Source of the DNA: a virus | Taxonomy: Duplodnaviria > Heunggongvirae > Uroviricota > Caudoviricetes | Virus record (IMG/VR): IMGVR_UViG_3300037067_008629 | Coordinates: 22,078 to 86,077 of that record | Direction: 5' to 3' (one strand) | DNA: 64,000 nucleotides | Part shown: positions 24,076-62,569 of the stretch, piece by piece | Layout: each line of letters starts with the position of its first letter | Numbering within the stretch: the stretch's first letter is position 1 | Program-made: the position numbers and the translations under genes | The notes under the pieces: model-generated | What the model was told of the DNA's origin: nothing | Database searches by the model: none | Seen by the model: the letters and a program-made list of their open reading frames with translations, nothing else

Positions 24076-24149
24076 CTCCAAGGGCAGGACTCGAACCTGC
24101 AACCCGACGGTTAACAGCCGTCTGCTCTACCGGATTGAGCTACCTCGGA
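24076..24149 (-). tRNA. tRNA-Asn (anticodon GUU)
   Basis: Folded by hand from the minus strand: acceptor TCCGAGG/CCTTGGA, D-arm GCTC-AATCCGGTA-GAGC, anticodon stem GACGG/CCGTC with loop CTGTTAA, T-arm GCAGG-TTCGAGT-CCTGC. Length is 74 nt and CCA is not encoded. Confidence 0.8.
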
Positions 24150-26499: not shown

Positions 26500-27561
26500 C
26501 CGACACTGCTTTTAGAATTAATCGACCACCGAGAATCGGACTAAAAGTTTCGGTCAAAGGGGTAATCACGACACCTTCACGACCTTTAAAAGCTGATCGC
26601 ATATGTACCTTATCACCAATAATAGTGTCTCCATCCACAAGTTGTTCTACCACTTCATAATCAAATGGCCCAGTATATAGTAGAGGAACTAATGGGATAC
26701 AAAAACGAGTAGTATAATAGACAATTTGATCCCAGTTTAAGTAAGTACCATCGACTGAAATATCAAATAATGCATAACCATCGGCACCAAATCTACCGTA
26801 GTCCATAAATTGGACCTTGGAACCATAAATTTCTCCGAATGCAATCACATTCTTTCCACCATCAGAGATACACCGAAGCATATCCTTCATATTGGATGTA
26901 AGTGGATTCCAATAAATAGACGGATGCTCCAGCTTATCAAGAGACTTCATTGAACATTTATGTGACCCACACATAAATTCATTGTCAATTAATCCAACAC
27001 GCGAATTAGTACCGTGAATTTTTTCGGTTAAACGCACTGGCGTTCCAAGTGGAATTGCATTCCGATACTTAGAATTTCGATAATTTTGAATATCTGTATA
27101 GATGTGAATCGGGGATCATTCTTGGCATTATCTCCAACTCTAAACCATTCTGGTTCTGGTGGTTCATATTTAACACCATGAAAACGATCCGTAAGATCAG
27201 TTCCAGCTTCCACATCTACTTTAATTGTGTCACAGATATCACGCCTCTGTGCAGGCACCAAGAACCCAAATGAAGCTGCCCCACGTAAACGAATAGCACC
27301 TACTCGACACCTAGATTTTTCAGAATCTCCCGGATAAACTGCATCTTTGAGATAATTCTCAACTCCGAGTTGTACAGCTACTTTAGGGGGTATGAGTATG
27401 TCTGGTGGGAAGTGGGCAACAACATCGCCCACTTGATACTTACCTTTTGTTTCACAAGTTTGATAGGCACCAATCTTAACAATTTCTAATTTATCTGCAT
27501 TAATGTGTGGATAAATGGCATCAACTTTAACAGCCAAAATACTCAAATCACTCATGCGCAT
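26462..27561 (-). CDS. Rnl2-like RNA ligase with N-terminal tRNA-binding-like OB domain, interrupted by a frameshift at the C4 run 27112-27115
   Basis: Downstream frame: DIQNYRNSKYRNAIPLGTPVRLTEKIHGTN aligns to the T4 Rnl2 N-terminus [33 protein letters not shown], with motif I KIHGTN. Motif III is AFGEIYGSKVQ and motif IV is EGVVITPL. Upstream frame 27028..27561: ILAVKVDAIYPHINADKLEIVKIG resembles the Myf/EMAP tRNA-binding OB domain. The two frames join if one C is added to the cccc run (minus strand) at 27112-27115. Confidence 0.6.
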
Positions 27562-29147
27562 CCTCCAATTAATTTATCAATAGCATTAACAAAATCTTCA
27601 ACTCGATCCCCACCAACAAGATGCTCGAAATCAATGGTGTTGGCTTTCTGTACCATTGCCTCTAAGCTAGTGTTGTCTAAAATCAACATTTTAGCCACTT
27701 CAGTATACTGCTGGTAACTAGTAGTAACTAATTCATCCATACCAGCCCTACGTAGCAAATAAGATGCCGCTCGATTAAACCATTGAGTACCTTCTAACGT
27801 AACTACTGGGCGACCACACCAGAGAGATTCCAGTATTGTATTATAGCCTCCAAAAGGATAGCTGTCAACTGAAAAATGACAATTTGCCAGAACTTCCATG
27901 TACTTCTCATATGGTAAGTTAGGCACTATCGTTATATTCTTTCCAAAATACTCTAGCATTGACATACGTACAGGTATTGATGCTTGATATCTATGGATTG
28001 GATGCCCTGGCATAAAAACTAAATGTGCCCCTACTGCTTGAAGTTCCTTTAAACATTGAAACATTGGTATATTATATTTGATTGCGCTCCAAGGCACTGC
28101 GACTCTAATTTGATCTGAAAGTGATGCTTTTACTTTAATTGTAGGCAAAACCGGTAATACACCGCTTCCTGGAAGTAGTATTAAGTTTTCAGAATAATTC
28201 TTTTTCCAATCTAATACTTCAACTGATTTTCCAGACAGAAAATAATCAATTTGATTACCCCTACCGGATACAGGATGACCATGGCAAGCAACCTGCACCG
28301 GTGCTAGCCTCATATTGGATAGATAAATAGACTCTGCTGTTAATCCAATATCTAAAAATAAAGCCATACCAAAAGTTGTAGTTTGAATCTCTGATAAATC
28401 TAATCCCCGATCACTTACAGATACTTGTGCAACATTTTTAAAAATAGATAAATCCGCTGTCGCATCAATTGGGCCTAAATGAACCAGTGTGAGTTTATAT
28501 TTTTCAGCTAAAGCATAGACAAGTTTTCCTATTGACTTCGCTACAACATGAGTTGGTTTCCAATTACTGGTGACAATAGCAATATGTTTAAGATTGGGCA
28601 CATTATCTGGTGTTGGTAATGTAAAACTCTTATTAAATTGTCTCTTTACTTTTTGGGCGGTATTTGATGAAAAATAATCCGACCAAAAATAAGCCTGCGT
28701 ACTTTGAGGGAGAAATACACAACGTGGATGAATATTTTTATAATGAGATTCAATATTTTTCTGAAGATTAGTATCTGTACAACCAATAATTGGCAAAATA
28801 TATTGAGCAAACCATAAAGATGCTAAATTTCTATCATGTTTAAAAAATTGTCGTGAATCCATGCTGTCTCTATTTCGTCCTGTATAGAGAAACATTTGTT
28901 TCACTGGATCATCAAATAAATTGAGCCACTGATCCGTTGTTTTATATGGAGTGACTGCAACTATATTTGCATAAATATGACTATAAGTTAGTAGCTGATA
29001 AGCCTCATCTTTGGGTACATCCTGGTCTTTAAGAATCTCTAAAACACCATCGGCTGCTTGAATAAACATCCCAAGAATCTGGCCATCAAGTTTATTGATA
29101 CCAACACGAGCAAATGGATCAAGTATAGCCTGTATCTGTTCAATCAT
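27552..29147 (-). CDS. GT41-family (O-GlcNAc transferase-like) glycosyltransferase, paralog A
   Basis: DSYPFGGYNTILESLWCGRPVVTLEGTQWFNRAASYLLRRAG matches the OGT C-terminal catalytic signature ([38 protein letters not shown]). MRLAPVQVACHGHPVSGRGNQIDYFLSG parallels [27 protein letters not shown]. No TPR region is obvious. Confidence 0.6.
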   Translation of the reverse strand: MIEQIQAILDPFARVGINKLDGQILGMFIQAADGVLEILKDQDVPKDEAYQLLTYSHIYANIVAVTPYKTTDQWLNLFDDPVKQMFLYTGRNRDSMDSRQFFKHDRNLASLWFAQYILPIIGCTDTNLQKNIESHYKNIHPRCVFLPQSTQAYFWSDYFSSNTAQKVKRQFNKSFTLPTPDNVPNLKHIAIVTSNWKPTHVVAKSIGKLVYALAEKYKLTLVHLGPIDATADLSIFKNVAQVSVSDRGLDLSEIQTTTFGMALFLDIGLTAESIYLSNMRLAPVQVACHGHPVSGRGNQIDYFLSGKSVEVLDWKKNYSENLILLPGSGVLPVLPTIKVKASLSDQIRVAVPWSAIKYNIPMFQCLKELQAVGAHLVFMPGHPIHRYQASIPVRMSMLEYFGKNITIVPNLPYEKYMEVLANCHFSVDSYPFGGYNTILESLWCGRPVVTLEGTQWFNRAASYLLRRAGMDELVTTSYQQYTEVAKMLILDNTSLEAMVQKANTIDFEHLVGGDRVEDFVNAIDKLIGGCA

Positions 29148-30901
29148 TGAATAATAACTGGAGTCTTATTAGGTAGTGGATGATTTGCGATAATATAGTC
29201 GATTGCTTTAACAAAATATTGAGGTTCATCAGTATCCAACAATAAGTTCTTTAAACGATTAACATCAACTAATTTATCTCTTTCTTCTTTAAGAACTTGT
29301 GGATTATCCAAGAGTGCTAAAATTTGTTCTTCGCACATTTCAATACTTGTGGTGGATAAATCTACTCCAACCCGTCTCGCCAAAGCTGTTGACGCCCTAT
29401 TATAGAACTTATCACCTTCAATAGTCACAACAGGGCATCCAGCAAAGAACGAGTCTACAATAGTATTATAGCCACCAAATGGATATGAATCAACAGTCAG
29501 ACTTCCTTGTTCCACCTTAGCGAGATAATCCTGATATTCAAGATTAGGATAAATCGAAACCTGGCCACCAAAGAGTTCTTGTAGTTCTCGACACATAATT
29601 GGAAAATTATTATAGCGAGTACATGTCCATGATGGGAAAAATTGATAGTGTATCTTTAATTTAGATTTTTGTTGAACATTTCTTAGCATCTTCAACATCG
29701 GCCAATTAATTTTAGCTGTTGTCCAGCAACAGTTAATATAAATTATATCTGTAGCCTCTGGATAACGACGTGTATATTTAGGATCAACTGGATGCGCACC
29801 CAATCCTGGAATCAAAATTAGATGCTCACTATAATTATCTTGAGCTAATTCAATTTTTTCAGAGTCAATCCCACCAATAAAATAGTCTACAAATGAACCA
29901 TATGTGCTTACAGGATGTCCATAACCACAAACCATAATAGGAGCAAGTCTTGTATTTGCAAGAAAAACAGATTCGTCTGTCATTCCAATATCAGGAAAGT
30001 ATGCCAATTCAAAATCATTTTTCTTAATAGCAGTTAAATCATGTTTCTCCATTCCAGCATGAACCTGAACAACTTGTTTAAATAGAGACCTATCTATTCT
30101 ATCCATTTGTGCTTTACTTGAACAGACTAGAGTTAAGTCATACTTTTGTGCCAGAGCTGCGATCTGAGGATAACTACTTTTATAAACTGCCGTAACTGGA
30201 ACCCATTTATCTGTGATGATAGCTAGGCTTCCTTTTCGAGGCACACTAGTTATTTTATGCAAGTTAGAAAATTTCTTAACTTGTTGATTGCACCATTCTT
30301 TAATGGGTCGCTCATTAATACCTGAATATGAACATTGAAAATACATAGGTTGAACACGACTATCAGGTAAATCAAGTTCTGGTAAAAATTCAACTAGGTG
30401 TTTAATCATATTTTTAGTTAAAAATTCAGACGTGCCTCCAGGAGGGGCAGTAGAAAAATTATTCCACCATAAAGTTGCTAGTTTAGGATTGGGCGTAACT
30501 AGTGCTTTAGTATTAATTCCAATATCATTTCTACACGTATACAGAAATAATAATTTTGCATAATTTCCTTCTTGGTATATTAATGCTCTTAGTACACCAT
30601 CAGTAGTGCGATGGCCAGATATTGCCACTAGATTGGCAAATAAATGATTAATACCGATAAACAATGGAATCCAGTTGTCTGGGAATCTGAAATCTTCTTG
30701 CAGCATTAAAAAGAAAACAAACTCCACAAAAGAATCTATTCGCTTTATATCTTCTTTTCCAAAAGAAGCATAATTAACATCATTGCAATGCTTTAGTATT
30801 GCAAATATATCTTGACAAAGCTTATCGTATCTCTTCTGTGTATATAGTGTCAAAGCATACCGAGTATCAAAAGCCGGAAAATTAGTAATTGATGTATTCA
30901 C
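29144..30901 (-). CDS. GT41-family (O-GlcNAc transferase-like) glycosyltransferase, paralog B
   Basis: DSYPFGGYNTIVDSFFAGCPVVTIEGDKFYNRASTALARRVG and RLAPIMVCGYGHPVSTYGSFVDYFIGG carry the same OGT catalytic-domain signatures and are clearly paralogous to 27552..29147. Confidence 0.6.
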   Translation of the reverse strand: MNTSITNFPAFDTRYALTLYTQKRYDKLCQDIFAILKHCNDVNYASFGKEDIKRIDSFVEFVFFLMLQEDFRFPDNWIPLFIGINHLFANLVAISGHRTTDGVLRALIYQEGNYAKLLFLYTCRNDIGINTKALVTPNPKLATLWWNNFSTAPPGGTSEFLTKNMIKHLVEFLPELDLPDSRVQPMYFQCSYSGINERPIKEWCNQQVKKFSNLHKITSVPRKGSLAIITDKWVPVTAVYKSSYPQIAALAQKYDLTLVCSSKAQMDRIDRSLFKQVVQVHAGMEKHDLTAIKKNDFELAYFPDIGMTDESVFLANTRLAPIMVCGYGHPVSTYGSFVDYFIGGIDSEKIELAQDNYSEHLILIPGLGAHPVDPKYTRRYPEATDIIYINCCWTTAKINWPMLKMLRNVQQKSKLKIHYQFFPSWTCTRYNNFPIMCRELQELFGGQVSIYPNLEYQDYLAKVEQGSLTVDSYPFGGYNTIVDSFFAGCPVVTIEGDKFYNRASTALARRVGVDLSTTSIEMCEEQILALLDNPQVLKEERDKLVDVNRLKNLLLDTDEPQYFVKAIDYIIANHPLPNKTPVIIQ

Positions 30902-39423: not shown

Positions 39424-39761
39424 GCTAATTTGCCTCCATGACGGTATGAGCGTGTCTTATTATATTCTAATTTTAATCTAAGAGCTTCTTCCAAAGGAAT
39501 GTTAAACTTGCCACAAGTATCGGCTACTCGAATCAAAAGATCAGCAAACTCCACAGCGATCCCTTCCGGCTTGTCATCCAAATTGTATACCATACTATAT
39601 TTGTCCAAACCGTGCTTTCGATACTCCTCCATTACTTCGGCTAATTCTGTTACCATTAACATTAACTTTTCGCCAAAATTAATTTCTTTATCCCACCAAC
39701 CTTTTTCTAAGGCTGTAGTATAAGATTGTTGAATTAATTCTTGTATTGTCATGGATACCAT
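39420..39761 (-). CDS. mazG: MazG-like nucleotide pyrophosphohydrolase
   Basis: All-alpha NTP-PPase acidic motifs: MLMVTELAEVMEE and GIAVEFADLLIRVAD. Length is 113 aa. Confidence 0.55.
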   Translation of the reverse strand: MVSMTIQELIQQSYTTALEKGWWDKEINFGEKLMLMVTELAEVMEEYRKHGLDKYSMVYNLDDKPEGIAVEFADLLIRVADTCGKFNIPLEEALRLKLEYNKTRSYRHGGKLA

Positions 39762-40225
39762 ACCTTTCCATCAAATAGATTTTGGCAATAACCTAGTTTT
39801 CCATACCACCAAGTATATGTCACACCACTGGCTTCAAAAATCTTCTTAGCCAACTCAGTATCTTCTCGCCAACGGTCTGGTGTCATTTCCAAAGCATTCC
39901 CATGGCAGACTACCTCTTTAATACCTGAAAGAACAATCGCACGAGCACAATCACAACAAGCAGCCCATGGACAATACATGGTAGCACCTTCTAAAGATAC
40001 TCCCTCTTTTGCTGCCTTAAAAATTGCGTCTCGTTCCGCGTGTTCAATAATTTTGTACTTTAATGCTCTGTCTGTTAAATCAAAATTATCTAAACCAGGA
40101 GGTAGGTGATTCCAGCCCATAAACATATGAGATTGGGTTAAGATAATGGCTCCAACCTTCGTACTAGGGTCAGGGCTATAAAGATGTGCAATTCGATATG
40201 CAGATCGTAAATTATTCTTGTTCAT
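39749..40225 (-). CDS. dCMP deaminase
   Basis: HAERDAI is the zinc-binding H-A-E motif and YCPWAACCDCARAIVLSGI is the PCxxC motif. Confidence 0.75.
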   Translation of the reverse strand: MNKNNLRSAYRIAHLYSPDPSTKVGAIILTQSHMFMGWNHLPPGLDNFDLTDRALKYKIIEHAERDAIFKAAKEGVSLEGATMYCPWAACCDCARAIVLSGIKEVVCHGNALEMTPDRWREDTELAKKIFEASGVTYTWWYGKLGYCQNLFDGKVWYP

Positions 40226-40272: not shown

Positions 40273-40345
40273 GGCCACCAGAAGGAATTGAACCCTCAAC
40301 ATTCGCAGTACAGGTGCGATGCTCTGCCAATTGAGCTATGGTGGC
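40273..40345 (-). tRNA. tRNA-Thr (anticodon UGU), with C at position 33
   Basis: Hand-folded: acceptor GCCACCA/TGGTGGC, D-arm GCTC-AATTGGCA-GAGC, anticodon stem TCGCA/TGCGA with loop CCTGTAC, T-arm GAGGG-TTCAATT-CCTTC. Length is 73 nt. Position 33 is C rather than U. Confidence 0.65.
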
Positions 40346-41298: not shown

Positions 41299-42033
41299 CT
41301 ACCGATCACGCTTCTTAGGGGCATTTGCCTCTTCTACTTTTTCAATCTCTGTATTCTTCAAAGCCATAAACTTGTTAATTTCTTCTACAATAACTTCCGT
41401 GGGTGGAAGATTTGTAACTGGCGTGGAACATGAAACACATACTGGAACATGCCAGCCATATGTTGGTTTCTTGATATACTTAACCTTCAAGGTACAAGGT
41501 TCTGGAGCCGTTCCAACAGGGCGGTTTAGACGTAGAGAGAGTTGTTCAGCGTCAGCTGCCGACTTGGGAAGATAGGCACCAATCTTAGGTGCTTCTTTTC
41601 GCGTCGAACTAGTGCCACAGAAAAACTCATAAAACTGACCTGAACCACGTTCAAAAACCAAAAATGTTGGACCATACATACAACCCGAATTAGGCTGGTC
41701 GCCCAACTCTTTAATAACCTTAAATGCTTCGCTTGTCGGATCGTAGTTAGTAACAATACTGTCACGATCCCTCATATCTAAAGCCTTTACTCGACAACAC
41801 ACTGGCAGAATGTCAATTTCATTTCCCAAATCCTGAATGACATCATCACCACGAGGTACACCATAATGACCGGGCGCAATCAATCCATTATCAATAGCAG
41901 CACCCTTGGTGTATAGCTGAAGTCGATCTAAAAATGAACCACTCTTTGCAACCGCCTGGAAAATCTCACTATTTACACTTAAGCCAGTCGTTGGTAGCTG
42001 ATTCAAATTTACAGGTGTTAATTCATTACTCAT
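41299..42033 (-). CDS. hypothetical protein
   Basis: 244-aa ORF. Confidence 0.4.
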   Translation of the reverse strand: MSNELTPVNLNQLPTTGLSVNSEIFQAVAKSGSFLDRLQLYTKGAAIDNGLIAPGHYGVPRGDDVIQDLGNEIDILPVCCRVKALDMRDRDSIVTNYDPTSEAFKVIKELGDQPNSGCMYGPTFLVFERGSGQFYEFFCGTSSTRKEAPKIGAYLPKSAADAEQLSLRLNRPVGTAPEPCTLKVKYIKKPTYGWHVPVCVSCSTPVTNLPPTEVIVEEINKFMALKNTEIEKVEEANAPKKRDR

Positions 42034-42056: not shown

Positions 42057-43031
42057 TTAATCTTCAATTAACGAAATTCTCCAATCATCACTTAAACCTA
42101 ATTCTTTTTGACTCTTTAATATAGCACGTCTTTTTCTCCTTTCAATTAACTGTGTTTCCATTTTGTCTAATTTTTTCTGCTGTTTTGCAGCATGTTGCTT
42201 TACACTATCAGTATCCAAGTGCAAAACCCATGCCAAAGCCTGTCTCCAAACATTTAATGGTGATAATTCTGCATCTGTTTGAAGAGAGCTAAGAATAACT
42301 GAACCACTAATAGGTTTTTCAAATTCACTTTTTATCTGTCTTAGATTACGAAGATGCGGCTGCGGAGTTTGATTTAATATAAAAAACTTTTCAGCTTTAC
42401 CTTTAAATGCTTGCTCCCAATAATCTTTCATCATTCCATTACATATTCTTGCCGCATCTTTTCCACTCATGCAAAGCGCTTTAGGTAAAAATTCTTCCTG
42501 CATCTTTTGAGGTAAACAACACATAGCATATGCAGCAACCAAGGAAAGATTACCGGCGTCTAACTCCCGTTTAGCTGAATCACATAACCGAGTTAATTTT
42601 AATGTTGATCGTATCCAACCTGGATTTTTATTAATTCTAACAGAAAGTGCTTCAAAAGTCAAGTCTGAATCGGCAGCAAATAATCTTTTTAAGTGCATTG
42701 CAAATTCAGCACGTTTTGTAGGAGGACGTTGCATATTTTCTTCAATCTGCATAATTAAAGCTTCTTCGTCAGATGCAGATACAAGAACACAGGGGATTTT
42801 TGTTAGTCCAATGTCTTGAGCACAAGAAAATCTATACATACCAGCAACAATTTCATACTTTCCCTCAAAGCGAATAGATTGTCGAACAGTAATGGCACTT
42901 ATAATGCCGTGGGTCGCAATAGAATCACGAAGTTCCATATAGTCTAACGTGCGGCGATCCACTACTCTCAGCATGAGATATGGAGTAACTATTTGATCTA
43001 TATTAAGATTAAGACTTAAATTTTCAGGCAT
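42057..43031 (-). CDS. ParB-like nuclease domain protein
   Basis: N-terminal ParB/Srx-like region (GIISAITVRQ...YEIVAGMYRF), with a helical rest. Confidence 0.45.
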   Translation of the reverse strand: MPENLSLNLNIDQIVTPYLMLRVVDRRTLDYMELRDSIATHGIISAITVRQSIRFEGKYEIVAGMYRFSCAQDIGLTKIPCVLVSASDEEALIMQIEENMQRPPTKRAEFAMHLKRLFAADSDLTFEALSVRINKNPGWIRSTLKLTRLCDSAKRELDAGNLSLVAAYAMCCLPQKMQEEFLPKALCMSGKDAARICNGMMKDYWEQAFKGKAEKFFILNQTPQPHLRNLRQIKSEFEKPISGSVILSSLQTDAELSPLNVWRQALAWVLHLDTDSVKQHAAKQQKKLDKMETQLIERRKRRAILKSQKELGLSDDWRISLIED

Positions 43032-43341
43032 GGGGAGTACAAAATTTACATGAAGAACATAAATTTAAATTAACAATAACATCTTTTCCAATTTCTTTAT
43101 TAGTACAAATATGATAAAATGTAACACACCGACACCCTTCTTTTGGTATTTGTACTCTACTCCTAAAACAACAAGTTGTCCAAATAGGAATTAAAACCCA
43201 CGCATCTGAATTTTTAGGATTATTTGATTTACGCTGATAACCTTCTACTAATGGTGGGGGTTCCCACCCTCTTTTTGGGTATATTAATGTTCCATTATCT
43301 AATATATGTGGTTTATTATATTTTTTAAAACTCATACACAT
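43024..43341 (-). CDS. Cys-rich domain protein (paralog of the C-terminal part of 32057..32626)
   Basis: Shared block EPPP-x-V-x-GY-x-RKSNNP-x-x-SDAW-x-LIP followed by a Cys cluster. It is the first gene of the leftward operon leaving the 43.3-43.7 kb control region. Confidence 0.45.
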   Translation of the reverse strand: MCMSFKKYNKPHILDNGTLIYPKRGWEPPPLVEGYQRKSNNPKNSDAWVLIPIWTTCCFRSRVQIPKEGCRCVTFYHICTNKEIGKDVIVNLNLCSSCKFCTPHA

Positions 43342-43356
43342 TTACCTCTAGTATTA

Positions 43357-43699
43357 TTGCAGTCGAAGCAGCGCCGAAATTTCAAAGTTAGCGCCGATTT
43401 CTAAAAATTAAGCCCCGTAACTATCACTAATTATATCAGCATTTTTTAAATCAAAGACCACAAACAAGTTACATCAATAGTTGTCAAAGTGCGTTGTATC
43501 GAGAAAATAAACTTTTTAAAGGCGAGAAATTGAGATAAAAAATAATATACATTCGCTAGGAGAAAAAAGTTTTTTGCCCACAACGCACTTTGACAACTAT
43601 TGACGTAACTTGTACTATCGCCAATATTTAGACAAAATCGGAAGTGATTTTAAGTTAATAAGTAAGATTTTTGCAATTTCGGCGCTAGTTTGACTGCAA
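43357..43699. promoter_or_regulatory. divergent control region with nested long inverted repeats (putative operator/origin)
   Basis: Inner repeat: 43465-43497 caagttacatcaatagttgtcaaagtgcgttgt is inverted at 43579-43611 with 32 of 33 matches, around an 81-bp AT-rich spacer. Outer repeat: 43357-43382 attgcagtcgaagcagcgccgaaatt is inverted at 43674-43699 with 23 of 26 matches. Confidence 0.6.
43590..43618 (+). promoter_or_regulatory. sigma-70-like promoter for the rightward replication operon
   Basis: TTGACA (43590-43595), a 17-nt spacer, then TACTAT (43613-43618). The -35 box lies inside the right arm of the 33-bp inverted repeat, about 110 nt upstream of the primase ATG. Confidence 0.45.
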
Positions 43700-43735
43700 T
43701 ATAGATTAGAGAGCTTATTTAATTTGGAGATTATT

Positions 43736-46483
43736 ATGTCAAATCCTAAACCCTCAACTGTTATTCATGCTTGTCTAACACAAGATAACGGTCTGAGGCA
43801 TAATGAACAAAGAATTGCAAATTGGTACAACCATGAAATGGAAGTCCAAATTATGGTTGCACAAGGTGCAGGGGAATCTGTCGAAGGTAAATTAGGTGTT
43901 TATACTGACGGGTTAAATACATGGTATAATTTACGTATACCTAAGAACGCTAATACTGATCCAATTGATAATGACTATGAAATAAAATATGCTTTAGAAC
44001 AACATGCTGAAGCTGTTGGTATGACAGGATGGAATTGGAAAAAGCGGTGCTCTGTTAGAGTTGGTTTTGATTTTGATTCTATTACATGCCATGCAAAGGG
44101 GGTTGGGGTTAGTGACGAGCAACTAAATGAAATTCGGGATAAACTGATGGAAGTTCCCGAAGCATTGGTGTTGCGTAGTACTAGTGGCACAGGCTTGCAT
44201 TTATATTTGGAATTTGATCCAGATAACCTACCAGTTACATTGAATCATACTGAACATGCAGCAATGGCTATTGCATGTCTGAAGGTTATATCACATCGCG
44301 TTGGTTTTGATTTTCAAGCTGGTGTGGATGTTGGTGGTGGCAATATGTGGATTTGGCACCAAAAAATGACTCCTGAAAATCGTGGGTTAACTATTCTAAA
44401 AGACAATATTCATTCAGATGGTACACGCGCATATATGGCTGTACCTGAGAATTGGAAATTATATATGGATGTGGCCACACGAAAAAGACAGAAAATTAAA
44501 ATAGAAGGAGTACCAGATGATGAGCAAGATGCAGTATCAGATAAAGCTGCTGCCCAAAAGGCAATCCCCTTAACTGATACACATAAACAAATTATCACTG
44601 GACTCCAACAGGTTTGCCCAAATTTCTCGACTGTTTGGATTCCAGACCATCATTTATTGCAAACGCATACCTGTGCTTTAAAACTTTATTTTAATCACTG
44701 TGAAAATACTGGTAATTCTCTCATTGGTGTTTTTAATACTCTAAGTGAGGGACGTGATCCTAGTAAACCAAATTGTTTTTGTTTCCCATTAGCAAATGGT
44801 GGCTTTAGAGTTGTGAGATTTGGAAAGGGGACTAAAGAACATGATTCCTGGCAAATGGATCGTGGAGGTTGGTCTTATACTTACTATAATCAAGCAATGA
44901 ACTTTTTTCGTGCCGCCACCGCGTATGAAGGTCTTGAAGATGATAGGTCAGGATTCACCTTCACTGACGCTGATTCAGCTATTAGCGCTGTACAAGCAAT
45001 GGGACATCAAATTGAGATACCCGATGAATTAGCTGATCGAGCAGTTACCCTACGTCCGCACAAAGGTGGCAAATTACTAGTAGAAATTGAAAGTATAAAA
45101 ACTGACAAAGAACTTGAAATTATAGGTTGGATTAAGAAAAGTAGAAAATGGATTAAGGTTTACAACATTAAGATACTAGAAGACCCTAATACTACAATTG
45201 ACTTTGAAGATGTTGATAATAATGTACGTGCTGTAATTACTACAGACCATTTATTATCTGGTTGGCATTTAAGACATGAACAAGGTATGTGGATGCAACT
45301 TGGAAAAGATGATGCAAGATCAAAGTTAAAGTCTATTGGATATGAAACTACTACAGAGGCTATACTTGGACAAGTGATTTCAAAAGCATGGATTCGTGTA
45401 AATTTACCATTTCGAGAAGAATATCCTGGAAATCGTCAATGGAATCTAAATGCGGCACAGTTACGTTTCGATCCTGCTACAGATATTGATAATGACGGGG
45501 AGTCATTGCACCCACATTGGGATATGATATTGACACATATTGGAAGAGAATTAGATGAATATCTTCCTGAATTGCCTTGGGCTAAACGTAATGGTATTCG
45601 TACAGGTAAGGACTATTTGACTTTATGGATAGCTTGTATGATAAGAGAACCATTTGAACCACTACCATATTTATTTTTATATGGTCTTGAAGAGACTGGT
45701 AAATCTATTCTACATGAAGCAATTTCTCTTTTAATGACAAAAGGAGTAATGCGTGCAGATACAGCTTTAACCAATCAAAGTGATTTTAATGGTGAATTAG
45801 ATGGTGCTATTCTATGCGTAGTTGAAGAAAAAAATATTACTAAAGCAGGAACGTCTGTTCGGAATAAAATTAAAGACTGGGTAACTTCTCCGACTATCTC
45901 TATACATGCAAAACATAAGCAAGTATGCCAACAACGTAATTCAACACATTGGATTCAATGCTCTAATGATAAAAGTAGTTGCCCTATTTTTACAGGTGAC
46001 ACTAGAATAACTATGATTAATGTGGCAGAATTAATGCCAGGGTCAGAAGTACCAAAACTAGTGTTACTTTCTAAACTCGAAGAAGAGGCACCTTATTTTT
46101 TGGCTACAATTTTAAATGCTACACTGCCTGATTTAGAACACCGGATGCGACTACCAATAGTTGTAACCAGCAATAAAGAACAGATGGCTGATTCAAATCA
46201 AACATTATTAGAAGAATTTTTGGAAACAAAGTGTTTTTATGTTCCTGGATCATGTGTTCTTTTTACAGATTTTTATAATGAATTTATGGCAACTATTCCA
46301 GATAAAGATAAACAATCAGAATGGGATAGACAAAAGATTCAAGGAGCTTTGCCAGGAAAATATCCCTCGGGATTTTATACGGGAAATGCTAGGTATATTG
46401 GTAATATTTCTTTTGTACCAACTGAAGCCCAGCCATTTACTTTTATATGTAGAGATAAAAAGCTAGTAATTAAAGAGACTTGA
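43736..46483 (+). CDS. primase-polymerase (AEP) / SF3 helicase replication protein
   Basis: AEP motifs VGFDFDS (DxD) and STSGTGLHLYLEF (sGxGxH). C-terminal SF3/D5-like helicase with Walker A GLEETGKS and Walker B ILCVVEEK. The track start at 43724 is a TTG; the ATG at 43736 has a GGAGA upstream. Confidence 0.65.
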   Translation: MSNPKPSTVIHACLTQDNGLRHNEQRIANWYNHEMEVQIMVAQGAGESVEGKLGVYTDGLNTWYNLRIPKNANTDPIDNDYEIKYALEQHAEAVGMTGWNWKKRCSVRVGFDFDSITCHAKGVGVSDEQLNEIRDKLMEVPEALVLRSTSGTGLHLYLEFDPDNLPVTLNHTEHAAMAIACLKVISHRVGFDFQAGVDVGGGNMWIWHQKMTPENRGLTILKDNIHSDGTRAYMAVPENWKLYMDVATRKRQKIKIEGVPDDEQDAVSDKAAAQKAIPLTDTHKQIITGLQQVCPNFSTVWIPDHHLLQTHTCALKLYFNHCENTGNSLIGVFNTLSEGRDPSKPNCFCFPLANGGFRVVRFGKGTKEHDSWQMDRGGWSYTYYNQAMNFFRAATAYEGLEDDRSGFTFTDADSAISAVQAMGHQIEIPDELADRAVTLRPHKGGKLLVEIESIKTDKELEIIGWIKKSRKWIKVYNIKILEDPNTTIDFEDVDNNVRAVITTDHLLSGWHLRHEQGMWMQLGKDDARSKLKSIGYETTTEAILGQVISKAWIRVNLPFREEYPGNRQWNLNAAQLRFDPATDIDNDGESLHPHWDMILTHIGRELDEYLPELPWAKRNGIRTGKDYLTLWIACMIREPFEPLPYLFLYGLEETGKSILHEAISLLMTKGVMRADTALTNQSDFNGELDGAILCVVEEKNITKAGTSVRNKIKDWVTSPTISIHAKHKQVCQQRNSTHWIQCSNDKSSCPIFTGDTRITMINVAELMPGSEVPKLVLLSKLEEEAPYFLATILNATLPDLEHRMRLPIVVTSNKEQMADSNQTLLEEFLETKCFYVPGSCVLFTDFYNEFMATIPDKDKQSEWDRQKIQGALPGKYPSGFYTGNARYIGNISFVPTEAQPFTFICRDKKLVIKET

Positions 46484-46698
46484 GGTTAGATATGGACAAC
46501 ATAATAAGAGTCTATAGGTATTCGGATCAGTATAAAGACCGTGCATACCCTGTGGCTGACATTAGGATATCAGGTCCAATTTGTGGTAATCCTGTCAAAT
46601 TTGCGCGAAAACATGGTGGAGATTTTATTGAAGTGCTTTCGCTCGAAGATATGGATGTAGATGATTTAGCAACATTTGAAATAATAAATGGTATGTAA
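46480..46698 (+). CDS. hypothetical protein
   Basis: 72-aa ORF coupled to the primase stop. Confidence 0.35.
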   Translation: MRLDMDNIIRVYRYSDQYKDRAYPVADIRISGPICGNPVKFARKHGGDFIEVLSLEDMDVDDLATFEIINGM

Positions 46699-46733
46699 AT
46701 TGCAGTAATTCAAGTTAGATTAAGGAGTATTAT

Positions 46734-47246
46734 ATGCTAAAAAAACCAGATTATGATCATTTTAAAGATTCCGGTGCTCGCTCACAATTTAATACTGGAG
46801 CAGTTCGGGATGCTCAAGGAGGGAAGGGTAGAATGGATTTGTTACCATTTAGAGCAATTTTTGAAGTTGCAAAAGTTTTAGAGGGTGGGGCAAAAAAATA
46901 TGACTCCCGTAACTGGGAAAAGGGTATCCCTCTATCTAGGTATGCAGATAGCGGTTTAAGACATATGGGTAAATATTTACGGGGGGATCGAGATGAGCCA
47001 CACGATGCTATGGCTTGTTGGAATTTTCTTTGTTTAATTGAAACTCGAATGCGTATTGAAGAGGGGTTATTACCAGCAGAATTAAATGATTTACCTTGGA
47101 ATCCTCTTGAACTTTTAGATAATCCATTAAATATTGAACCTACTGACCCAAATAGTGAATTAGTCAAGCCTGAACGACGTAAATCATACCAAAAAACTAT
47201 TAAAGGGTCCAAAAGAAAGTGTACAACGACGAAAAACAAAAAATAA
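46734..47246 (+). CDS. hypothetical protein (possibly nucleotide pyrophosphohydrolase-like)
   Basis: 170 aa. The EVAKVLEGGAKKYDSRNWEKG region has a weak resemblance to all-alpha NTP-PPase families. I could not confirm this. Confidence 0.3.
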   Translation: MLKKPDYDHFKDSGARSQFNTGAVRDAQGGKGRMDLLPFRAIFEVAKVLEGGAKKYDSRNWEKGIPLSRYADSGLRHMGKYLRGDRDEPHDAMACWNFLCLIETRMRIEEGLLPAELNDLPWNPLELLDNPLNIEPTDPNSELVKPERRKSYQKTIKGSKRKCTTTKNKK

Positions 47247-47457: not shown

Positions 47458-48075
47458 ATGCCTACATACCATACAGGTTTAGCACATCTTAACGGTAATA
47501 TAATGTGTGCGATTGATGTTGAGACAACAGGCCGAATGGCGGGATACCATGAAATTATTCAAATTGCTGTGCAGCCTCTAGATTCAATGCTAGAGCCCAT
47601 GAAAGATATTAGGCCATTCTATACTACAATCGCACCTGAATACCCAGAGCGAGCTGAAGGGGAAGCGCAAGCAGTCCATGGTTTAAATTTGCAAGAACTA
47701 AAGGAAACTTCGTTAGACCAATGGCGTGTGGCCGATTTATTTGATGAGTGGCTAGAAGGATTAAATTTACCTTATAGAAAATCACTTGTACCATTAGCTC
47801 ATAATTGGGCTTTTGAAGCTGGATTTTTGAAATCATGGCTAGGTATAGATAGTATGAATGAGATTTTTCATCCACACCCACGAGATTCAATGTTATTAGC
47901 TATTTCTATCAATGATAGATCAGTAATGCAGGGTGAATTACCTATATACCCCTCAGTATCATTGACGGCAATGTGTAAACAATTAGGAATACAAGTAATA
48001 CATGCCCACGATGCTTTATCAGATGCATTAGCAGAAGCTAAAGTATATCAAACTCTTTTAAGATTATCACTATGA
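47458..48075 (+). CDS. DnaQ-like 3'-5' exonuclease (DEDDh)
   Basis: Exo I is CAIDVETTG, Exo II is HNWAFEAGFL, and Exo III is HAHDALSDA. Confidence 0.65.
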   Translation: MPTYHTGLAHLNGNIMCAIDVETTGRMAGYHEIIQIAVQPLDSMLEPMKDIRPFYTTIAPEYPERAEGEAQAVHGLNLQELKETSLDQWRVADLFDEWLEGLNLPYRKSLVPLAHNWAFEAGFLKSWLGIDSMNEIFHPHPRDSMLLAISINDRSVMQGELPIYPSVSLTAMCKQLGIQVIHAHDALSDALAEAKVYQTLLRLSL

Positions 48076-48254
48076 AACGATATCAAATATCTGTGTTTAG
48101 AACAACACAAACAGGTGATATTTTAATCACCTGTATAAAAGCTAGTTGGCTCCCGGATGATAATGAGAAATTTGCTTGGGAACTTGGAGGAGATCGGCTT
48201 GAGATTATTGAGATTGAATCCCCCATATCTATTAATATCCCTCCGCAGAATTAA
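48072..48254 (+). CDS. small hypothetical protein
   Basis: 60-aa ORF. It is the last plus-strand gene and converges with 48232..48792. Confidence 0.3.
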   Translation: MKRYQISVFRTTQTGDILITCIKASWLPDDNEKFAWELGGDRLEIIEIESPISINIPPQN

Positions 48255-60328: not shown

Positions 60329-60790
60329 TTAACTACGGGTTACTGTTGCTTCCGTTGCATTACATTTTCCAGAAACTGAAATTGTTGCATCTTGAAGATT
60401 AAATTCAAGATCATCGTAGCGAAATTCTGGTAAAATTGTAGTTTCATCCTGAGAAGTGCCACATGGCACATCATGTTGAACTTCAATATCTACACAATAA
60501 GGTTCACATAGATCGTCAGACGTACTAACCCATTCTGATGCATTACCCTTATTTTTAAGTGCATCTACAGGTGTAATAGCTTCGCTAGTACCTGTAGTAA
60601 TATGTTCATATACGAACTCCAACTCAACTTCGAGAGGTTGCTCGTCACCTTCTTTAACAGCGTCAAGAATACCACGATCAAGTAGATATTCATATTCCTT
60701 TGATTCTGTAAAGGTTAAATTACCTTCACCAACCTTAATCTCAATCTGCTGAGGTAAGAAATTAAGTGTGTCTCCTTTTTCAGGAACATT
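60329..60790. repeat. direct repeat (~460 bp, ~90% identity) with 61779..62240: duplicated C-terminal domain of the major tail paralogs
   Basis: Compare 60326-60440 ttaactacgggttactgttgcttccgttgcattacattttccagaaactgaaattgttgc with 61776-61890 ttaacgacgggttactgttgcttccgttgcgttacattttccagaaactgaaatcgttgc. The similarity continues for roughly 450 bp. The 5' 60 bp of the two genes are also repeated. Confidence 0.8.
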
Positions 60791-61714
60791 AGTTAGTCCC
60801 CAGGCAGGTGTGAAAACAATATTTGTCGTTGGGCTGGTAGATACAGGTGTTCGTGCTGTTACTGTATGAATAGTTGTATGCCCGGCTGTTGAAGGAGTAA
60901 ATCGTGCCCCAACTGGGACTAAATCAGTATATGTCGTATTTAACACTACTGTTGAAATATTGACATCAGTATCTGTGTTTGCGGGCTCTGCTAAACCACC
61001 AGCTGACGCCACTGTCGTATCATCAACAATACCATCACCAGCGCCTTCGTCAGCAATAGACCAATCAGCACACTGTGCAGGGCCAACTCCCCACATTGTC
61101 ACCACATCAGACGCAATATTTGCACCAGTTGTATGAATAGTGAAAGTGTTTGGTGAAAATGTCACGCCAGCGGCTACAACATCAACACCATTTGCAGCTG
61201 CAACATTTGCTGTGTCATCATCAGCTAACAACCAAACACCACTACCATCGCCTTCAATAGCACACGACCATTGTGGCCAAGTTGGATTAGCAACCAATGC
61301 TGCATCAAAGGCTGTTTTCATTGCGGACCCATTTGAGACGGCTGTATTAAACTCAAGTGTAAAAGTATCTGTATTCACATCGTACAAAATTGCTTCTGCA
61401 CCATTACTATTTGCCTCGAATATACAACCATTATAAACGTCATCCTTAGCGGGGGATGTAAAAATAAGATCGCCATTTGCAGCATTAATAGGAAGTGTTG
61501 CATCTGCATTAGCACCTGCGTTAACATCTGCTACTGATGTAAAATTCCAGCTATTCCATTCAACACCCTCATCTAATGCAGTAAAGGTTAGATCACTATT
61601 CACTGCATTACTATTAAGAACCGCCATAGCAACTGCACCCTCAGTAATAAGAGCCGTTCCGCTCAAGCCATCCTTAATACGAATCGTGCAATCACGTAAT
61701 TCGATTCTTGCCAT
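60329..61714 (-). CDS. major tail protein paralog, long form, with shared C-terminal domain
   Basis: 461 aa. The first 20 aa (MARIELRDCTIRIKDGLSGTA) and the last ~150 aa are nearly identical to 61779..62513. The middle ~220 aa is a Thr/Ala/Asn-rich insertion. Confidence 0.5.
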   Translation of the reverse strand: MARIELRDCTIRIKDGLSGTALITEGAVAMAVLNSNAVNSDLTFTALDEGVEWNSWNFTSVADVNAGANADATLPINAANGDLIFTSPAKDDVYNGCIFEANSNGAEAILYDVNTDTFTLEFNTAVSNGSAMKTAFDAALVANPTWPQWSCAIEGDGSGVWLLADDDTANVAAANGVDVVAAGVTFSPNTFTIHTTGANIASDVVTMWGVGPAQCADWSIADEGAGDGIVDDTTVASAGGLAEPANTDTDVNISTVVLNTTYTDLVPVGARFTPSTAGHTTIHTVTARTPVSTSPTTNIVFTPAWGLTNVPEKGDTLNFLPQQIEIKVGEGNLTFTESKEYEYLLDRGILDAVKEGDEQPLEVELEFVYEHITTGTSEAITPVDALKNKGNASEWVSTSDDLCEPYCVDIEVQHDVPCGTSQDETTILPEFRYDDLEFNLQDATISVSGKCNATEATVTRS

Positions 61715-61742
61715 TTTAATCTCCAGTTTTATATTAAAGAAA

Positions 61743-62513: not shown

Positions 62514-62569
62514 ATTTTATACCTCCAAAAAAGTTTGTTAATTATTGCCCAGTTTACGTCTGGTAACGA

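What the first reader, a model, noticed from the sequence alone, without database searches (positions are those of the whole stretch)
43357..43699. Nested long inverted repeats in the divergent control region (operator/origin or MITE-like element)
The only strand-switch region in 64 kb contains a near-perfect 33-bp inverted repeat (43465-43497 and 43579-43611, 32 of 33 matches) around an 81-bp AT-rich core. That sits inside a second, 26-bp inverted pair (43357-43382 and 43674-43699, 23 of 26 matches). The right inner arm carries a near-consensus TTGACA-N17-TACTAT promoter aimed at the primase-helicase gene, and the left arm carries the mirror-image -35 box. This looks like a bidirectional early promoter/operator pair, a replication origin beside the initiator gene, or a 147-bp MITE-like insertion with 33-bp terminal inverted repeats.
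Basis: seen in the sequence. Interest (0 to 1): 0.6.

Follow-up and report, generated by a model that had tools for sequence, protein, structure and literature searches.

The report
Mirror-symmetric phage replication control region
The nested inverted repeats are real and conserved, and are best read as two copies of one promoter/operator module flanking a probable replication origin, which sits just upstream of the phage's own primase-helicase initiator; this is a familiar kind of element in an uncultured phage family, not a mobile insertion.

Summary
Both inverted repeats exist: inner 43464-43497/43580-43613 (33 of 34) and outer 43355-43386/43670-43701 (28 of 32). They are the two longest local inverted repeats in the 64 kb.

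- **Conservation.** Relatives share the module ParB-like operon <- | -> primase-helicase. Fourfold-degenerate sites of the adjacent gene are only about 50% identical in the closest relatives. Yet the inner-arm cores (22 + 25 nt) and a 29-nt central block are invariant, with no compensatory changes.
- **More distant relatives (49-73% primase identity).** They carry lineage-specific iteron palindromes of up to 136-nt arms at the same place. Two lineages lack them.
- **Outer repeat.** It is a duplicated promoter-like module (TTGMAA-N18-TGCAAT, then TAGAGR) carrying an AGCGCCG box found nowhere else in the window.
- **Adjacent gene.** It encodes an AEP primase, an SF3 helicase and a C-terminal winged helix resembling the phage P4 origin-binding domain. 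That domain is its most variable part.

Best reading, by inference only: an iteron origin between twin promoters. The MITE idea is rejected. This is a new member of a known kind, of moderate interest.

The parts
42057..43031 (-). ParB/Noc/Spo0J-family protein (324 aa), second gene of the leftward operon. Candidate binder of the AGCGCCG boxes.
   Evidence: Pfam ParB_N E 7.6e-14. NCBIfam TIGR00180 parB_part scores 70 bits, above the 58.45 cut-off. Best PDB matches are Noc, ParB and Spo0J. The HTH region, residues 101-175, is 72-96% identical to the window's in the seven compared lineages other than L017, all of which keep a GCGCC-type box. It is 40-48% identical in L017, which lacks the box.
43024..43335 (-). 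Cys-rich 103-aa protein of unknown family, first gene of the leftward operon. The true start is probably the ATG at 43335 (MSFKK...).
   Evidence: ORF list and translation. No Pfam, PHROG or NCBIfam hit. Orthologues sit at the same position in all relatives. The start is inferred from the RBS spacing and from L001/L002.
43345..43386 (-). Left outer arm, a promoter/operator-like module for the leftward operon: -35 TTGAAA 43385-43380, AGCGCCG box 43370-43376 inside an 18-nt spacer, -10-like TGCAAT 43361-43356, TAGAGG (SD) 43350-43345.
   Evidence: The same layout recurs in L001, L002, L008 (TTGAAA-N18-TATAAT), L014, L015 and L003.
43390..43409 (+). Second AGCGCCG box, a tandem copy 20 nt from the first (AGCGCCGATTTCTAAAAATT).
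   Evidence: family D2. The motif GCGCCG/CGGCGC occurs 4 times in 64 kb, 3 of them here. The second copy is present in L001 and L002, and inverted in L008.
43464..43497 (.). Inner left arm. Its core 43476-43497 is invariant in three genomes. It holds two GTTGT (= ACAAC) pentamers 13 nt apart (43480, 43493) and GTTACATCAAT.
43498..43579 (+). 82-nt core, 28% GC. It holds an invariant asymmetric block 43503-43531 (GAAAATAAACTTTTTAAAGGCGAGAAATT), a variable A+T stretch 43532-43562, and a short secondary IR 43506-43517/43564-43575.
   Evidence: (I9). A T-rich run followed by GCGAG(A/G), on the primase-sense strand, also lies in the centre of L008, L017 and L019.
43580..43613 (.). Inner right arm. 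Its core 43579-43603 is invariant. It reads ACAAC-N8-ACAAC then TATTGACGTAAC.
   Evidence: ACAAC-N8-ACAACTAT is shared with the L008 arms. GTTACGTCAAT is shared with both arms of L018.
43590..43618 (+). The -35 is part of the arm; the -10 lies at the arm's end.
   Evidence: 10 of 12 matches. The -10 is not conserved in L001/L002. No TTGACA at the equivalent place in L008.
43671..43712 (+). Right outer arm, a promoter/operator-like module for the primase-helicase operon: -35 TTGCAA 43671-43676, CGGCGCT box 43680-43686 in an 18-nt spacer, -10-like TGCAAT 43695-43700, TAGAGA 43707-43712.
   Evidence: The arm is 100% complementary to its partner in L002 and 94% in L003, and decayed in L001.
43736..46483 (+). 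Primase-helicase (915 aa): AEP prim-pol domain, SF3/D5-like helicase (DUF5906), and a C-terminal winged helix (about residues 834-915). RBS GGAG at 43726-43729.

Best explanation
The 400-bp divergent intergenic region (43336-43735) is a degenerate mirror-symmetric control region of the phage replication module. It has two layers.

**Outer repeat.** Its arms are two copies of one promoter/operator module, so that the two early operons are expressed and regulated together.
- Layout: -35 TTGMAA, an 18-nt spacer carrying an AGCGCCG box, a -10-like TGCAAT, then TAGAGR.
- One copy faces the Cys-rich protein/ParB-like operon; the other faces the primase-helicase operon.
- The AGCGCCG boxes are most likely bound by the conserved ParB-family protein (inferred).

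**Inner repeat with its A+T-rich core.** This is most likely the replication origin.
- The C-terminal winged-helix domains of the adjacent AEP-SF3 primase-helicase recognise the ACAAC-containing sites in the two inverted arms.
- Two helicase rings then load in opposite orientation around the 82-bp core.
- The core melts, and the protein's own primase domain starts synthesis.

**Shown here:** the anatomy, its conservation, the arm/iteron turnover between lineages, and the domain folds.
**Inferred:** which protein binds which site, origin firing, and the transcription starts.
For: 1. **Selection on sequence.**
   - Fourfold-degenerate sites of the adjacent primase gene are 48-52% identical between the window and L001/L002.
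   - The inner-arm cores (22 + 25 nt) are nevertheless 100% invariant and the 29-nt central block is 97% invariant in all three genomes.
   - Of the 34 arm pairs, 27 never vary and none shows a compensatory change. Where the arms do vary, the pairing is lost. This fits protein recognition rather than a hairpin requirement.

2. **Same architecture with different sequence in relatives sharing the syntenic module.**

   | Locus | Arms | Distance between arms | Notes |
   |---|---|---|---|
   | L008 | 86 nt, 99% | 87 nt | extra left copy |
   | L015 | 98 nt, 95% | 99 nt | |
   | L017 | 112 nt, 97% | 230 nt | made of 13-nt tandem palindromic units |
   | L018 | 136 nt + 116 nt, 94-96% | 81-nt centre | whole 575 bp is a palindrome |
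   | L014 | eleven copies of AAACTAACT | | opposite orientation on the two sides |
   | L019 | 39 nt | 51 nt | |

   Sources. Internal tandem units are typical of iterons.

3. **The initiator.**
   - This is the same domain order as pRN1 ORF904, and (with a DnaG-type rather than AEP primase) as P4 alpha. The same two structural relatives (1dp7, 1ka8) were reported for ORF904 (PMC2777425).
   - SaPI Rep and SCCmec Cch2 bind iteron origins next to their genes through their C-terminal domains (PMC7581432).

4. **Variability of the winged helix.**
   - It is the least conserved part of the protein: 27-42% identity in residues 841-880, against 56-73% overall, in the lineages outside the window group.
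   - Its predicted recognition helix is RQKIQ in the three genomes that share identical arms, and differs in every lineage with other iterons.

5. **Outer arms.**
   - The -35/N18/-10/TAGAGR register relative to both start codons is kept across lineages. L008 has TTGAAA-N18-TATAAT on both sides.
   - GCGCCG/CGGCGC is almost confined to this region of the window.
   - The ParB HTH region stays conserved (72-96%) wherever a GCGCC-type box is kept.

6. **Whole-region symmetry.** The palindrome score of the intergenic region is far above shuffles in every lineage with repeats, for example 51 against 9.0 +/- 2.5 here and 218 against 15.2 +/- 3.6 in L018.
Against: - No experiment and no coverage data: binding, melting and firing are all inferred.
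- Two lineages with an intact primase-helicase and winged helix lack the inner repeat at this position. L003 keeps only the outer IR around 569 nt of non-repetitive DNA. L016 has a 130-bp intergenic region with three CGGCGC boxes. An origin there would have to lie elsewhere, or the inner element is accessory.
- The window has only two ACAAC sites per arm.
- The core is A+T-rich (5th percentile) but not the least stable DNA in the window.
- Gene orientation gives no support for a dominant bidirectional origin, because the rightward block is only 4.3 kb.
- Variability of a C-terminal domain can also reflect weak constraint.
- The -10-like hexamers of the outer arms are weak in some lineages (GATATC in L003). 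The leftward leader would be only about 14 nt.
Confidence: 0.5

Rival explanations
1. Purely transcriptional control element. The inner arms are arrays of binding sites for a regulator: the ParB-family protein acting like KorB, the Cys-rich 103-aa protein, or the primase-helicase as an autoregulator. The regulator represses or loops the two flanking promoters, and the element has no origin function.
For: - The element sits between two divergent promoter-like modules.
- A genuine ParB/Noc-family HTH protein is encoded next door.
- Iteron units in relatives contain dyad symmetry suited to dimeric HTH or winged-helix proteins: TTGAAATTCAA in L017 and ATCACTAAATTAGTGAT in L013/L014.
- Loss of the element in L003 and L016 without loss of either operon shows it is dispensable at this site.
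Against: - The ParB HTH region is its best-conserved part (72-96%) across lineages whose inner iterons are unrelated or absent. It follows the conserved GCGCC-type box instead.
- Arms of 86-136 nt flanking an A+T-rich centre directly beside an SF3 initiator with a P4-type origin-binding fold are the classical origin layout.
- The two functions are not exclusive; SV40 T antigen does both (textbook knowledge).
Confidence: 0.25
2. One reading: the inner arms themselves carry a back-to-back pair of early promoters. TTGACA-N17-TACTAT points rightwards and a mirror -35 points leftwards.
For: The site 43590-43618 is the best sigma-70-like match in 12 kb, 10 of 12. TTGACA is invariant in L001 and L002.
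Against: - The -10 is not kept in L001 (GCTAGA) or L002 (AGTATA) at 17-nt spacing.
- The left arm has no usable -10 in the window (TTTGTG).
- L008 keeps the arm architecture but has TTCCACAAC in place of TTGACAAC.
- Promoter-like hits are not enriched over shuffles.
- The invariance of TTGACA is explained by its lying inside the invariant arm core.
Confidence: 0.1
3. Structure-only element. The repeat works as a long RNA hairpin (an RNase III site or a small RNA) or as a DNA cruciform, without sequence-specific protein recognition.
For: Strong predicted hairpin: -39.8 kcal/mol, z = -10.2. Arms within one genome are 94-99% complementary in several relatives.
Against: - No compensatory change in 34 pairs; the cores are sequence-invariant while neutral sites are about 50% identical.
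- The arms of relatives are built from tandem short units.
- Rfam gives only sub-threshold generic miRNA-hairpin matches.
- The element lies upstream of both conserved promoter-like modules.
Confidence: 0.07
4. Passive mobile or selfish palindromic element: a MITE-like insertion with terminal inverted repeats.
For: The size (150 bp) and 34-nt terminal inverted repeats fit. The element is absent from two related lineages.
Against: - Single copy in 64 kb.
- The exact 24-mer is found in IMG/VR only at the orthologous locus of two relatives.
- The 22-mer is absent from 185,579 species genomes.
- No flanking direct duplication.
- It occupies the same locus, with homologous submotifs, across lineages down to 56% primase identity: ACAAC-N8-ACAACTAT, GTTACGTCAAT and the central GCGAG.
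- Purifying selection acts on the sequence.
Confidence: 0.04
5. Inverton: the inverted repeats are recombination sites, and the asymmetric core flips to feed one operon or the other.
For: Inverted repeats flank a conserved asymmetric core that lies between two divergent operons.
Against: - The core motif (T-rich run plus GCGAG) has the same orientation relative to the primase gene in the window, L001/L006/L010, L002, L008, L017 and L019.
- No integrase or invertase domain was found in the 50 window ORFs scanned.
Confidence: 0.04

Closest known systems
Phage P4 alpha protein with its ori and crr sites
   Same: - A multifunctional initiator with the order primase, SF3 helicase, C-terminal winged-helix origin-binding domain.
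- NCBIfam gives a sub-threshold hit to 'phage/plasmid primase, P4 family'.
- The origin is made of short repeats present in both orientations (from memory of the P4 literature).
   Different: - The primase domain here is of AEP type, whereas P4 alpha has a DnaG-type primase (PMC2777425).
- The iteron sequences are unrelated.
- Here a single compact palindromic element lies directly upstream of the gene, between twin promoters. P4 has two separated sites.
SaPI Rep/ori and SCCmec Cch2/ori (staphylococcal islands)
   Same: - Self-loading D5/SF3-type helicases recognise, through a C-terminal domain, an iteron origin placed next to their own gene.
[quoted passage not shown]
- Cch2 recognises 5-nt iterons (PMC7581432).
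   Different: - Those origins lie downstream of the gene. In Cch2 the direct repeats, not the inverted repeats, are needed for binding.
- Here the sites are in inverted arms upstream of the gene, and promoters are duplicated around them.
pRN1 ORF904 (archaeal plasmid prim-pol/helicase)
   Different: The pRN1 origin is a region downstream of the gene with a putative stem-loop, and no iterons were recognised (PMC2777425, PMC4234260). The host is archaeal.
SV40/polyomavirus core origin with large T antigen
   Same: - An SF3 helicase initiator binds pentanucleotide sites in inverted arrangement next to an A+T tract.
- It lies between divergent transcription units and also autoregulates (textbook knowledge).
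- Head-to-head double hexamers are also described for the D5-like mpox E5 protein (PMC12137749, title and abstract only).
   Different: - In SV40 the DNA-binding domain is N-terminal to the helicase.
- The sites are contiguous rather than separated by an 82-bp core.
- There is no homology of the sites.
KorB/ParB-family regulators and parS/NBS sites
   Same: - A true ParB/Noc-family protein is encoded in the operon controlled by the outer arm.
- The AGCGCCGAAAT box resembles half of a parS/NBS-type palindrome (my reading; not tested).
   Different: There is no full 16-bp palindrome, and no ParA-like partner was seen in the neighbouring genes. The boxes sit inside or beside promoter spacers.

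Membership tests
Iteron-type origin served by a self-loading SF3 primase-helicase (P4 / SaPI / pRN1 type) | The adjacent gene encodes an initiator with an SF3/D5-like helicase domain | tested here: met
   Pfam DUF5906 E 5.5e-14. A profile matches the NrS-1 helicase region at E 4.6e-10. PHROG 'DNA primase' families match.
Iteron-type origin served by a self-loading SF3 primase-helicase (P4 / SaPI / pRN1 type) | The initiator carries a sequence-specific dsDNA-binding (winged-helix) domain | tested here: met
Iteron-type origin served by a self-loading SF3 primase-helicase (P4 / SaPI / pRN1 type) | Several short repeated initiator-binding sites (iterons) | tested here: inconclusive
   The window has only two ACAAC per arm, 13 nt apart. 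Relatives have clear arrays: 9 copies of GAATTTCAA in L017, 11 of AAACTAACT in L014, 5 of CGGTGATAA in L015.
Iteron-type origin served by a self-loading SF3 primase-helicase (P4 / SaPI / pRN1 type) | An A+T-rich unwinding element next to the sites | tested here: inconclusive
   The core has 28% GC, the 5th percentile, but is not among the ten least stable 60-nt windows.
Iteron-type origin served by a self-loading SF3 primase-helicase (P4 / SaPI / pRN1 type) | Initiator binding and replication start at the site | not testable with these tools
   This needs EMSA or footprinting, marker-frequency analysis or a plasmid origin assay.
MITE / passive mobile element | Multiple dispersed copies in the genome or in related genomes | tested here: not met
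   One copy in the window. Only the orthologous loci in IMG/VR. No match in 185,579 species genomes.
MITE / passive mobile element | Target-site duplication flanking the terminal repeats | tested here: not met
   The flanks CCACAA | ... | ACTATC show no direct repeat.
   The site is present in the window. The -10 is not kept in L001/L002, and the -35 is absent at the equivalent place in L008.
Sigma-70-type promoter modules in the outer arms | -35-like and -10-like hexamers at a fixed spacing and a fixed distance to the start codon across relatives | tested here: met
   The pattern is TTGMAA-N18-(TGCAAT / TGTAAT / TATAAT / CGTAAT)-N5-6-TAGAGR on one or both sides in the window, L001, L002, L008 and L014. 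It is weaker in L003 and L015. Transcription starts were not tested.
Inverton (invertible promoter) | Both orientations of the core observed, and a site-specific recombinase present | tested here: not met
   The core has the same orientation in all assemblies that carry the motif. No recombinase domain in the 50 ORFs scanned. Raw reads were not available.
ParABS centromere | A palindromic parS site bound by ParB, with a ParA partner | tested here: not met
   A ParB-family protein is present. However, there is no 16-bp palindrome in the arms, and no ParA-like hit among the ten genes scanned around the region (41299-42033 has no family).

The most novel reading that the evidence does not exclude
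The whole intergenic region is a self-homogenising palindromic cassette in which replication initiation and ParB-type control are coupled. In this reading a ParB/Noc-family CTPase is loaded on half-parS-like AGCGCCGAAAT boxes at twin promoters. It gates the assembly of the AEP-SF3 primase-helicase on rapidly co-evolving iteron arms. The conserved central T-run plus GCGAG motif is a dedicated priming or start signal. That would be a ParB-regulated origin in a large uncultured family of apparently lytic phages, and a natural system for studying how initiator and origin specificity diverge.
Probability: 0.12. Interest if true: 0.6.

Novelty: new member of a known kind. Interest (0 to 1): 0.35.

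Why it matters
If the reading is right, it locates the origin and the early control region of a large uncultured phage family. That family has more than 850 primase-helicase homologues in metagenomes, and no relative above 28% identity among 50,697 deposited phage records.

It also gives a clear natural series for studying how initiator and origin specificities diverge and how palindromic control regions stay homogenised. In that series the iteron arms are replaced from lineage to lineage while the architecture, and a P4-like winged-helix domain, persist.

It does not change any general principle. Iteron origins beside self-loading SF3 initiators are well known.

Tried and rejected
- **blastn against deposited phages.** A 4-kb query (43000-47000) found no match in 50,697 records. 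tblastn with the primase-helicase found only the helicase core at 22-28% identity. No annotated relative was therefore available to borrow features from.
- **Rfam at a permissive threshold.** Only generic long-hairpin (plant miRNA precursor, FasX) matches, far below their gathering scores. Discarded.
- **Exact arm 22-mer in 185,579 genomes.** None found. This counts against a host-derived MITE.
- **ACAAC-N8-ACAAC elsewhere in the window** (a second site like P4 crr). None beyond the two arms; the count equals chance.
- **DNA-stability profile.** The core is not exceptional, so it is not used as positive evidence.
- **GC skew.** It simply follows gene strand and is uninformative for an origin.
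- **DnaA-box and IHF-site readings by eye.** Only an 8-of-9 DnaA-like match in the L008 arms and nothing in the window. Dropped.
- **Internal promoter TTGTCA-N16-GAAAAT in the left arm.** It is invariant only because it lies in invariant blocks, and it is absent in L008. Dropped.
- **P0019 look-up.** Returned nothing.
- **Search for recombinases.** None found in the 50 ORFs scanned.
- **L013.** Its left flank is unrelated, G+C-richer DNA joined at the leftmost iteron. I could not decide between an assembly chimera and a real junction, and did not pursue it.
Full report
**1. Observation**

- The inner inverted repeat is 43464-43497 / 43580-43613: 34 nt, 33 matches, 82 nt between the arms.
- The outer repeat is 43355-43386 / 43670-43701: 32 nt, 88% complementary.
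- The inner arm has no third copy in the window with up to three mismatches, and none arose in 100 shuffles.
- In a scan of all 64 kb the two pairs are the two longest local inverted repeats.
- As single-stranded DNA the inner element folds with z = -10.2.
- TTGACA-N17-TACTAT is at 43590-43618.

Two corrections apply. First, the region is the only divergent switch, but a convergent switch lies at 48075/48232. Second, the core (28% GC) is in the 5th percentile for its length but is not among the least stable DNA of the window.

**2. Setting**

The window is phage-like. It encodes a tape-measure protein, a family A DNA polymerase, an SNF2 helicase, a ligase and many nucleotide-metabolism genes.

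Leftwards from the region run three genes:
- a Cys-rich 103-aa protein of no known family (43024-43335; start judged from the RBS and from relatives);
- a genuine ParB/Noc/Spo0J-family protein (42057-43031; TIGR00180 scores above its cut-off; PDB matches);
- a 244-aa protein of no known family.

Rightwards run the 915-aa primase-helicase (43736-46483), a MazZ-like diphosphohydrolase and an RNase T-like exonuclease.

Structure prediction splits the large protein into three parts:
- an SF3/D5-like helicase (DUF5906; NrS-1 helicase matched by profile at E 4.6e-10);
- a C-terminal winged helix (pLDDT 83).

**3. Close relatives**

The primase-helicase brought in syntenic loci from IMG/VR, JGI metagenomes and other assemblies. 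L001 (identical to L006 and L010 in this region) and L002 have 91% protein identity.

Fourfold-degenerate sites of the gene are only 48-52% identical to the window. Even so:
- the inner-arm cores (43476-43497 and 43579-43603) are invariant in all three genomes;
- a 29-nt asymmetric block in the core (43503-43531, GAAAATAAACTTTTTAAAGGCGAGAAATT) is 97% invariant;
- the intervening intergenic DNA is 39-48% invariant.

Counted as a helix, 27 of the 34 arm pairs never vary and none shows a compensatory change. Where the outer ends of the arms differ, the pairing is simply lost. Selection therefore acts on the sequence of each arm, as expected for protein recognition, and not merely on complementarity.

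**4. Distant relatives**

The same gene module recurs down to 46% primase identity. The divergent intergenic region usually again holds a large palindrome, but with a different sequence.

| Locus | Primase identity | Repeat architecture | Source |
|---|---|---|---|
| L008 | 73% | 86-nt arms, 99% complementary, 87 nt apart, plus an extra left copy | |
| L013/L014 | 73% | about 30-nt units; eleven AAACTAACT cores in L014, mostly one orientation on the left and the other on the right | |
| L015 | 68% | 98-nt arms, 95% | |
| L017 | 56% | 112-nt arms, 97%, built from 13-nt tandem units that each contain the palindrome TTGAAATTCAA | |
| L018 | 56% | the whole 575 bp is one palindrome (136-nt and 116-nt arms, 81-nt centre) | |
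| L019 | 49% | 39-nt arms around a 51-nt centre | |

Fragments of homology survive across these lineages:
- ACAAC-N8-ACAACTAT is shared by the window and L008 arms.
- GTTACGTCAAT is shared by the window's right arm and both L018 arms.
- A T-rich run followed by GCGAG(A/G) lies in the centre, always on the primase-sense strand, in the window group, L008, L017 and L019. I noticed this motif after the fact, so it should be treated with caution.

Two lineages are exceptions. L003 keeps only the outer repeat (33 nt, 94%) around 569 nt of non-repetitive DNA. L016 has a 130-bp intergenic region with three CGGCGC boxes and no repeat.

A palindrome score of the whole intergenic region is far above shuffles wherever repeats occur. 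The 'nested' repeats of the window are best seen as the constrained remnants of one mirror-symmetric region.

**5. The outer repeat**

Aligned on the start codons, both outer arms read as follows: -35-like TTGAAA/TTGCAA, an 18-nt spacer, a -10-like hexamer, 5-6 nt, then TAGAGR.
- The -10-like hexamer is TGCAAT here, TGTAAT in L001 (left arm), TATAAT on both sides in L008, and CGTAAT on both sides in L014.
- On the left, TAGAGR is the Shine-Dalgarno sequence of the first gene (coordinates are in the parts list).
- The spacer, or in L014's right arm the DNA just upstream of the -35, carries AGCGCCG. GCGCCG/CGGCGC occurs four times in the window, three of them here.
- The left side has a second copy 20 nt away.

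The HTH region of the ParB-family protein is its best-conserved part. It is 72-96% identical to the window's in the seven compared lineages other than L017, all of which keep a GCGCC-type box. It is 40-48% identical in L017, which lacks the box. I therefore assign the outer repeat to twin promoter/operator modules, probably controlled by the ParB-like protein. The promoter layout is shown by the sequence; the binding partner and the transcription starts are inferred.

**6. The inner repeat**

The -10 is lost in L001 and L002, and the TTGACA is replaced in L008.

The facts that need explaining are these:
- sequence-invariant arm cores;
- arms made of short tandem units in relatives;
- an inverted arrangement around an A+T-rich centre;
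- rapid replacement of the arm sequence between lineages, with near-identity of the two arms within a genome;
- a position directly beside an SF3 initiator whose winged helix resembles the P4 origin-binding domain.

The winged helix is the least conserved part of the protein: 27-42% identity in residues 841-880, against 56-73% overall, in the lineages outside the window group. Its predicted recognition helix reads RQKIQ in the three genomes that share identical arms, and differs in every lineage with different iterons.

This is the pattern of an initiator and its iterons. SaPI Rep and SCCmec Cch2 bind iteron origins next to their genes through C-terminal domains (PMC7581432). P4 alpha and pRN1 ORF904 have the same domain logic (PMC2777425).

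The proposed mechanism is as follows. Winged helices bind the ACAAC-containing sites in both arms. Two helicase rings load in opposite orientation around the 82-bp core. The core melts and the AEP domain primes. All of this is inference from the SF3 paradigm, and I put it at about 0.5.

**7. Weaknesses and rivals**

Nothing here shows binding or firing.
- The two lineages without the inner repeat mean either that the origin can lie elsewhere or that the element is accessory.
- The window has only two sites per arm, and the core is not exceptionally unstable.

The main rival is a purely regulatory site array, for the ParB-like protein, the Cys-rich protein or the primase-helicase as autoregulator (0.25). 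It is not exclusive of an origin.

The other rivals are weaker:
- A structure-only hairpin is disfavoured by the lack of covariation and by the tandem units.
- A MITE is disfavoured by single-copy status, absence from IMG/VR outside the orthologous loci, absence of the exact 22-mer from 185,579 genomes, no target duplication and strong conservation.
- An inverton is disfavoured by the constant orientation of the asymmetric core in all assemblies and by the lack of a recombinase among the 50 ORFs scanned.

**8. Comparison and novelty**

The element works like the iteron origins of self-loading SF3 initiators: P4 alpha with ori/crr, SaPI Rep, Cch2, and in layout SV40.

Membership features met here:
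- an SF3 initiator next door;
- a winged-helix fold;
- repeated sites, clear in relatives and minimal in the window.

The A+T-rich element is inconclusive, and function is untestable here.

It differs from the known cases in three ways:
- the AEP primase, against the DnaG-type primase of P4;
- the position upstream of the gene rather than downstream of it;
- the mirror duplication of the flanking promoter/operator module, associated with a ParB-family protein.

I rate it a new member of a known kind, in a phage family with no cultured representative.

**9. Verdict**

The origin option is favoured, the promoter option moves to the outer arms, and the MITE option is rejected.
- Interest is 0.35. 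This is a clean and well-conserved example with a useful comparative series, but it is not surprising in kind.

Noticed in passing
window 48075-48232: A second strand switch, this one convergent, lies between the RNase T-like exonuclease gene (+) and the Band 7/SPFH gene (-). A terminator-like hairpin sits at 48111-48134.
   Followed up: partly
window 4406-7798, 15483-16034, 27552-30901, 39749-40225, 46734-47246: A dense set of nucleotide-metabolism and possible DNA-modification genes: IMPDH/GMP-reductase-like, nucleoside 2-deoxyribosyltransferase fused to HNH and AP2 domains, DeoC aldolase, NT5C nucleotidase, two GT41-like glycosyltransferases, dCMP deaminase and a MazZ-like dATP/dGTP diphosphohydrolase. 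This may point to a non-canonical base in the phage DNA. No PurZ-like gene was seen among the ORFs scanned.
   Followed up: no
window 10146-11405: A BCS1-like AAA ATPase (BCS1_N E 2.8e-32, plus AAA and lid domains) is encoded in a phage genome. This is an unusual family for a phage.
   Followed up: no
window 22009-22932: A second ParB_N/parB_part-like protein (307 aa) lies far from the control region. The genome therefore encodes two ParB-family proteins.
   Followed up: no
window 24075-24149 and 40273-40345: Two tRNA genes on the minus strand: tRNA-Asn (GTT) and tRNA-Thr (TGT).
   Followed up: no
window 61645-61717 and 62444-62516: A 73-nt direct repeat (82% identical) covers the 5' ends of two neighbouring minus-strand genes (60329-61714 and 61779-62513). 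This suggests paralogues with a shared N-terminus.
   Followed up: no
L013 1-1735 (ena:ERZ27248201 k141_5852407): In one assembly of the L014 lineage the ParB-like operon is replaced by unrelated DNA of 43-49% GC. That DNA is joined exactly at the leftmost iteron of the intergenic array. It could be an assembly chimera at a repeat, or a real recombination or integration junction.
   Followed up: partly
window 43503-43531; L008 about 2755-2785; L017 about 2215-2247; L019 about 2285-2312: An asymmetric central motif, a T-rich run followed by GCGAG(A/G), always lies on the primase-sense strand. It is kept in the centre of the palindromes of lineages whose arms are otherwise unrelated. Its role is unknown; a priming or start signal, or a host-factor site, are guesses.
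   Followed up: partly
window 43024-43335: A Cys-rich 103-aa protein is conserved as the first gene of the leftward operon in all relatives. It matches no Pfam, PHROG or NCBIfam family. It may be a zinc-binding DNA-binding protein.
   Followed up: no
window 43736-46483 and homologues: The AEP-SF3-winged-helix protein has more than 850 metagenomic homologues of about 900 aa. Some lie on Mb-sized contigs from MAGs labelled Planctomycetota and Candidatus Uhrbacteria. No relative above 28% identity exists in 50,697 deposited phage records.
   Followed up: partly
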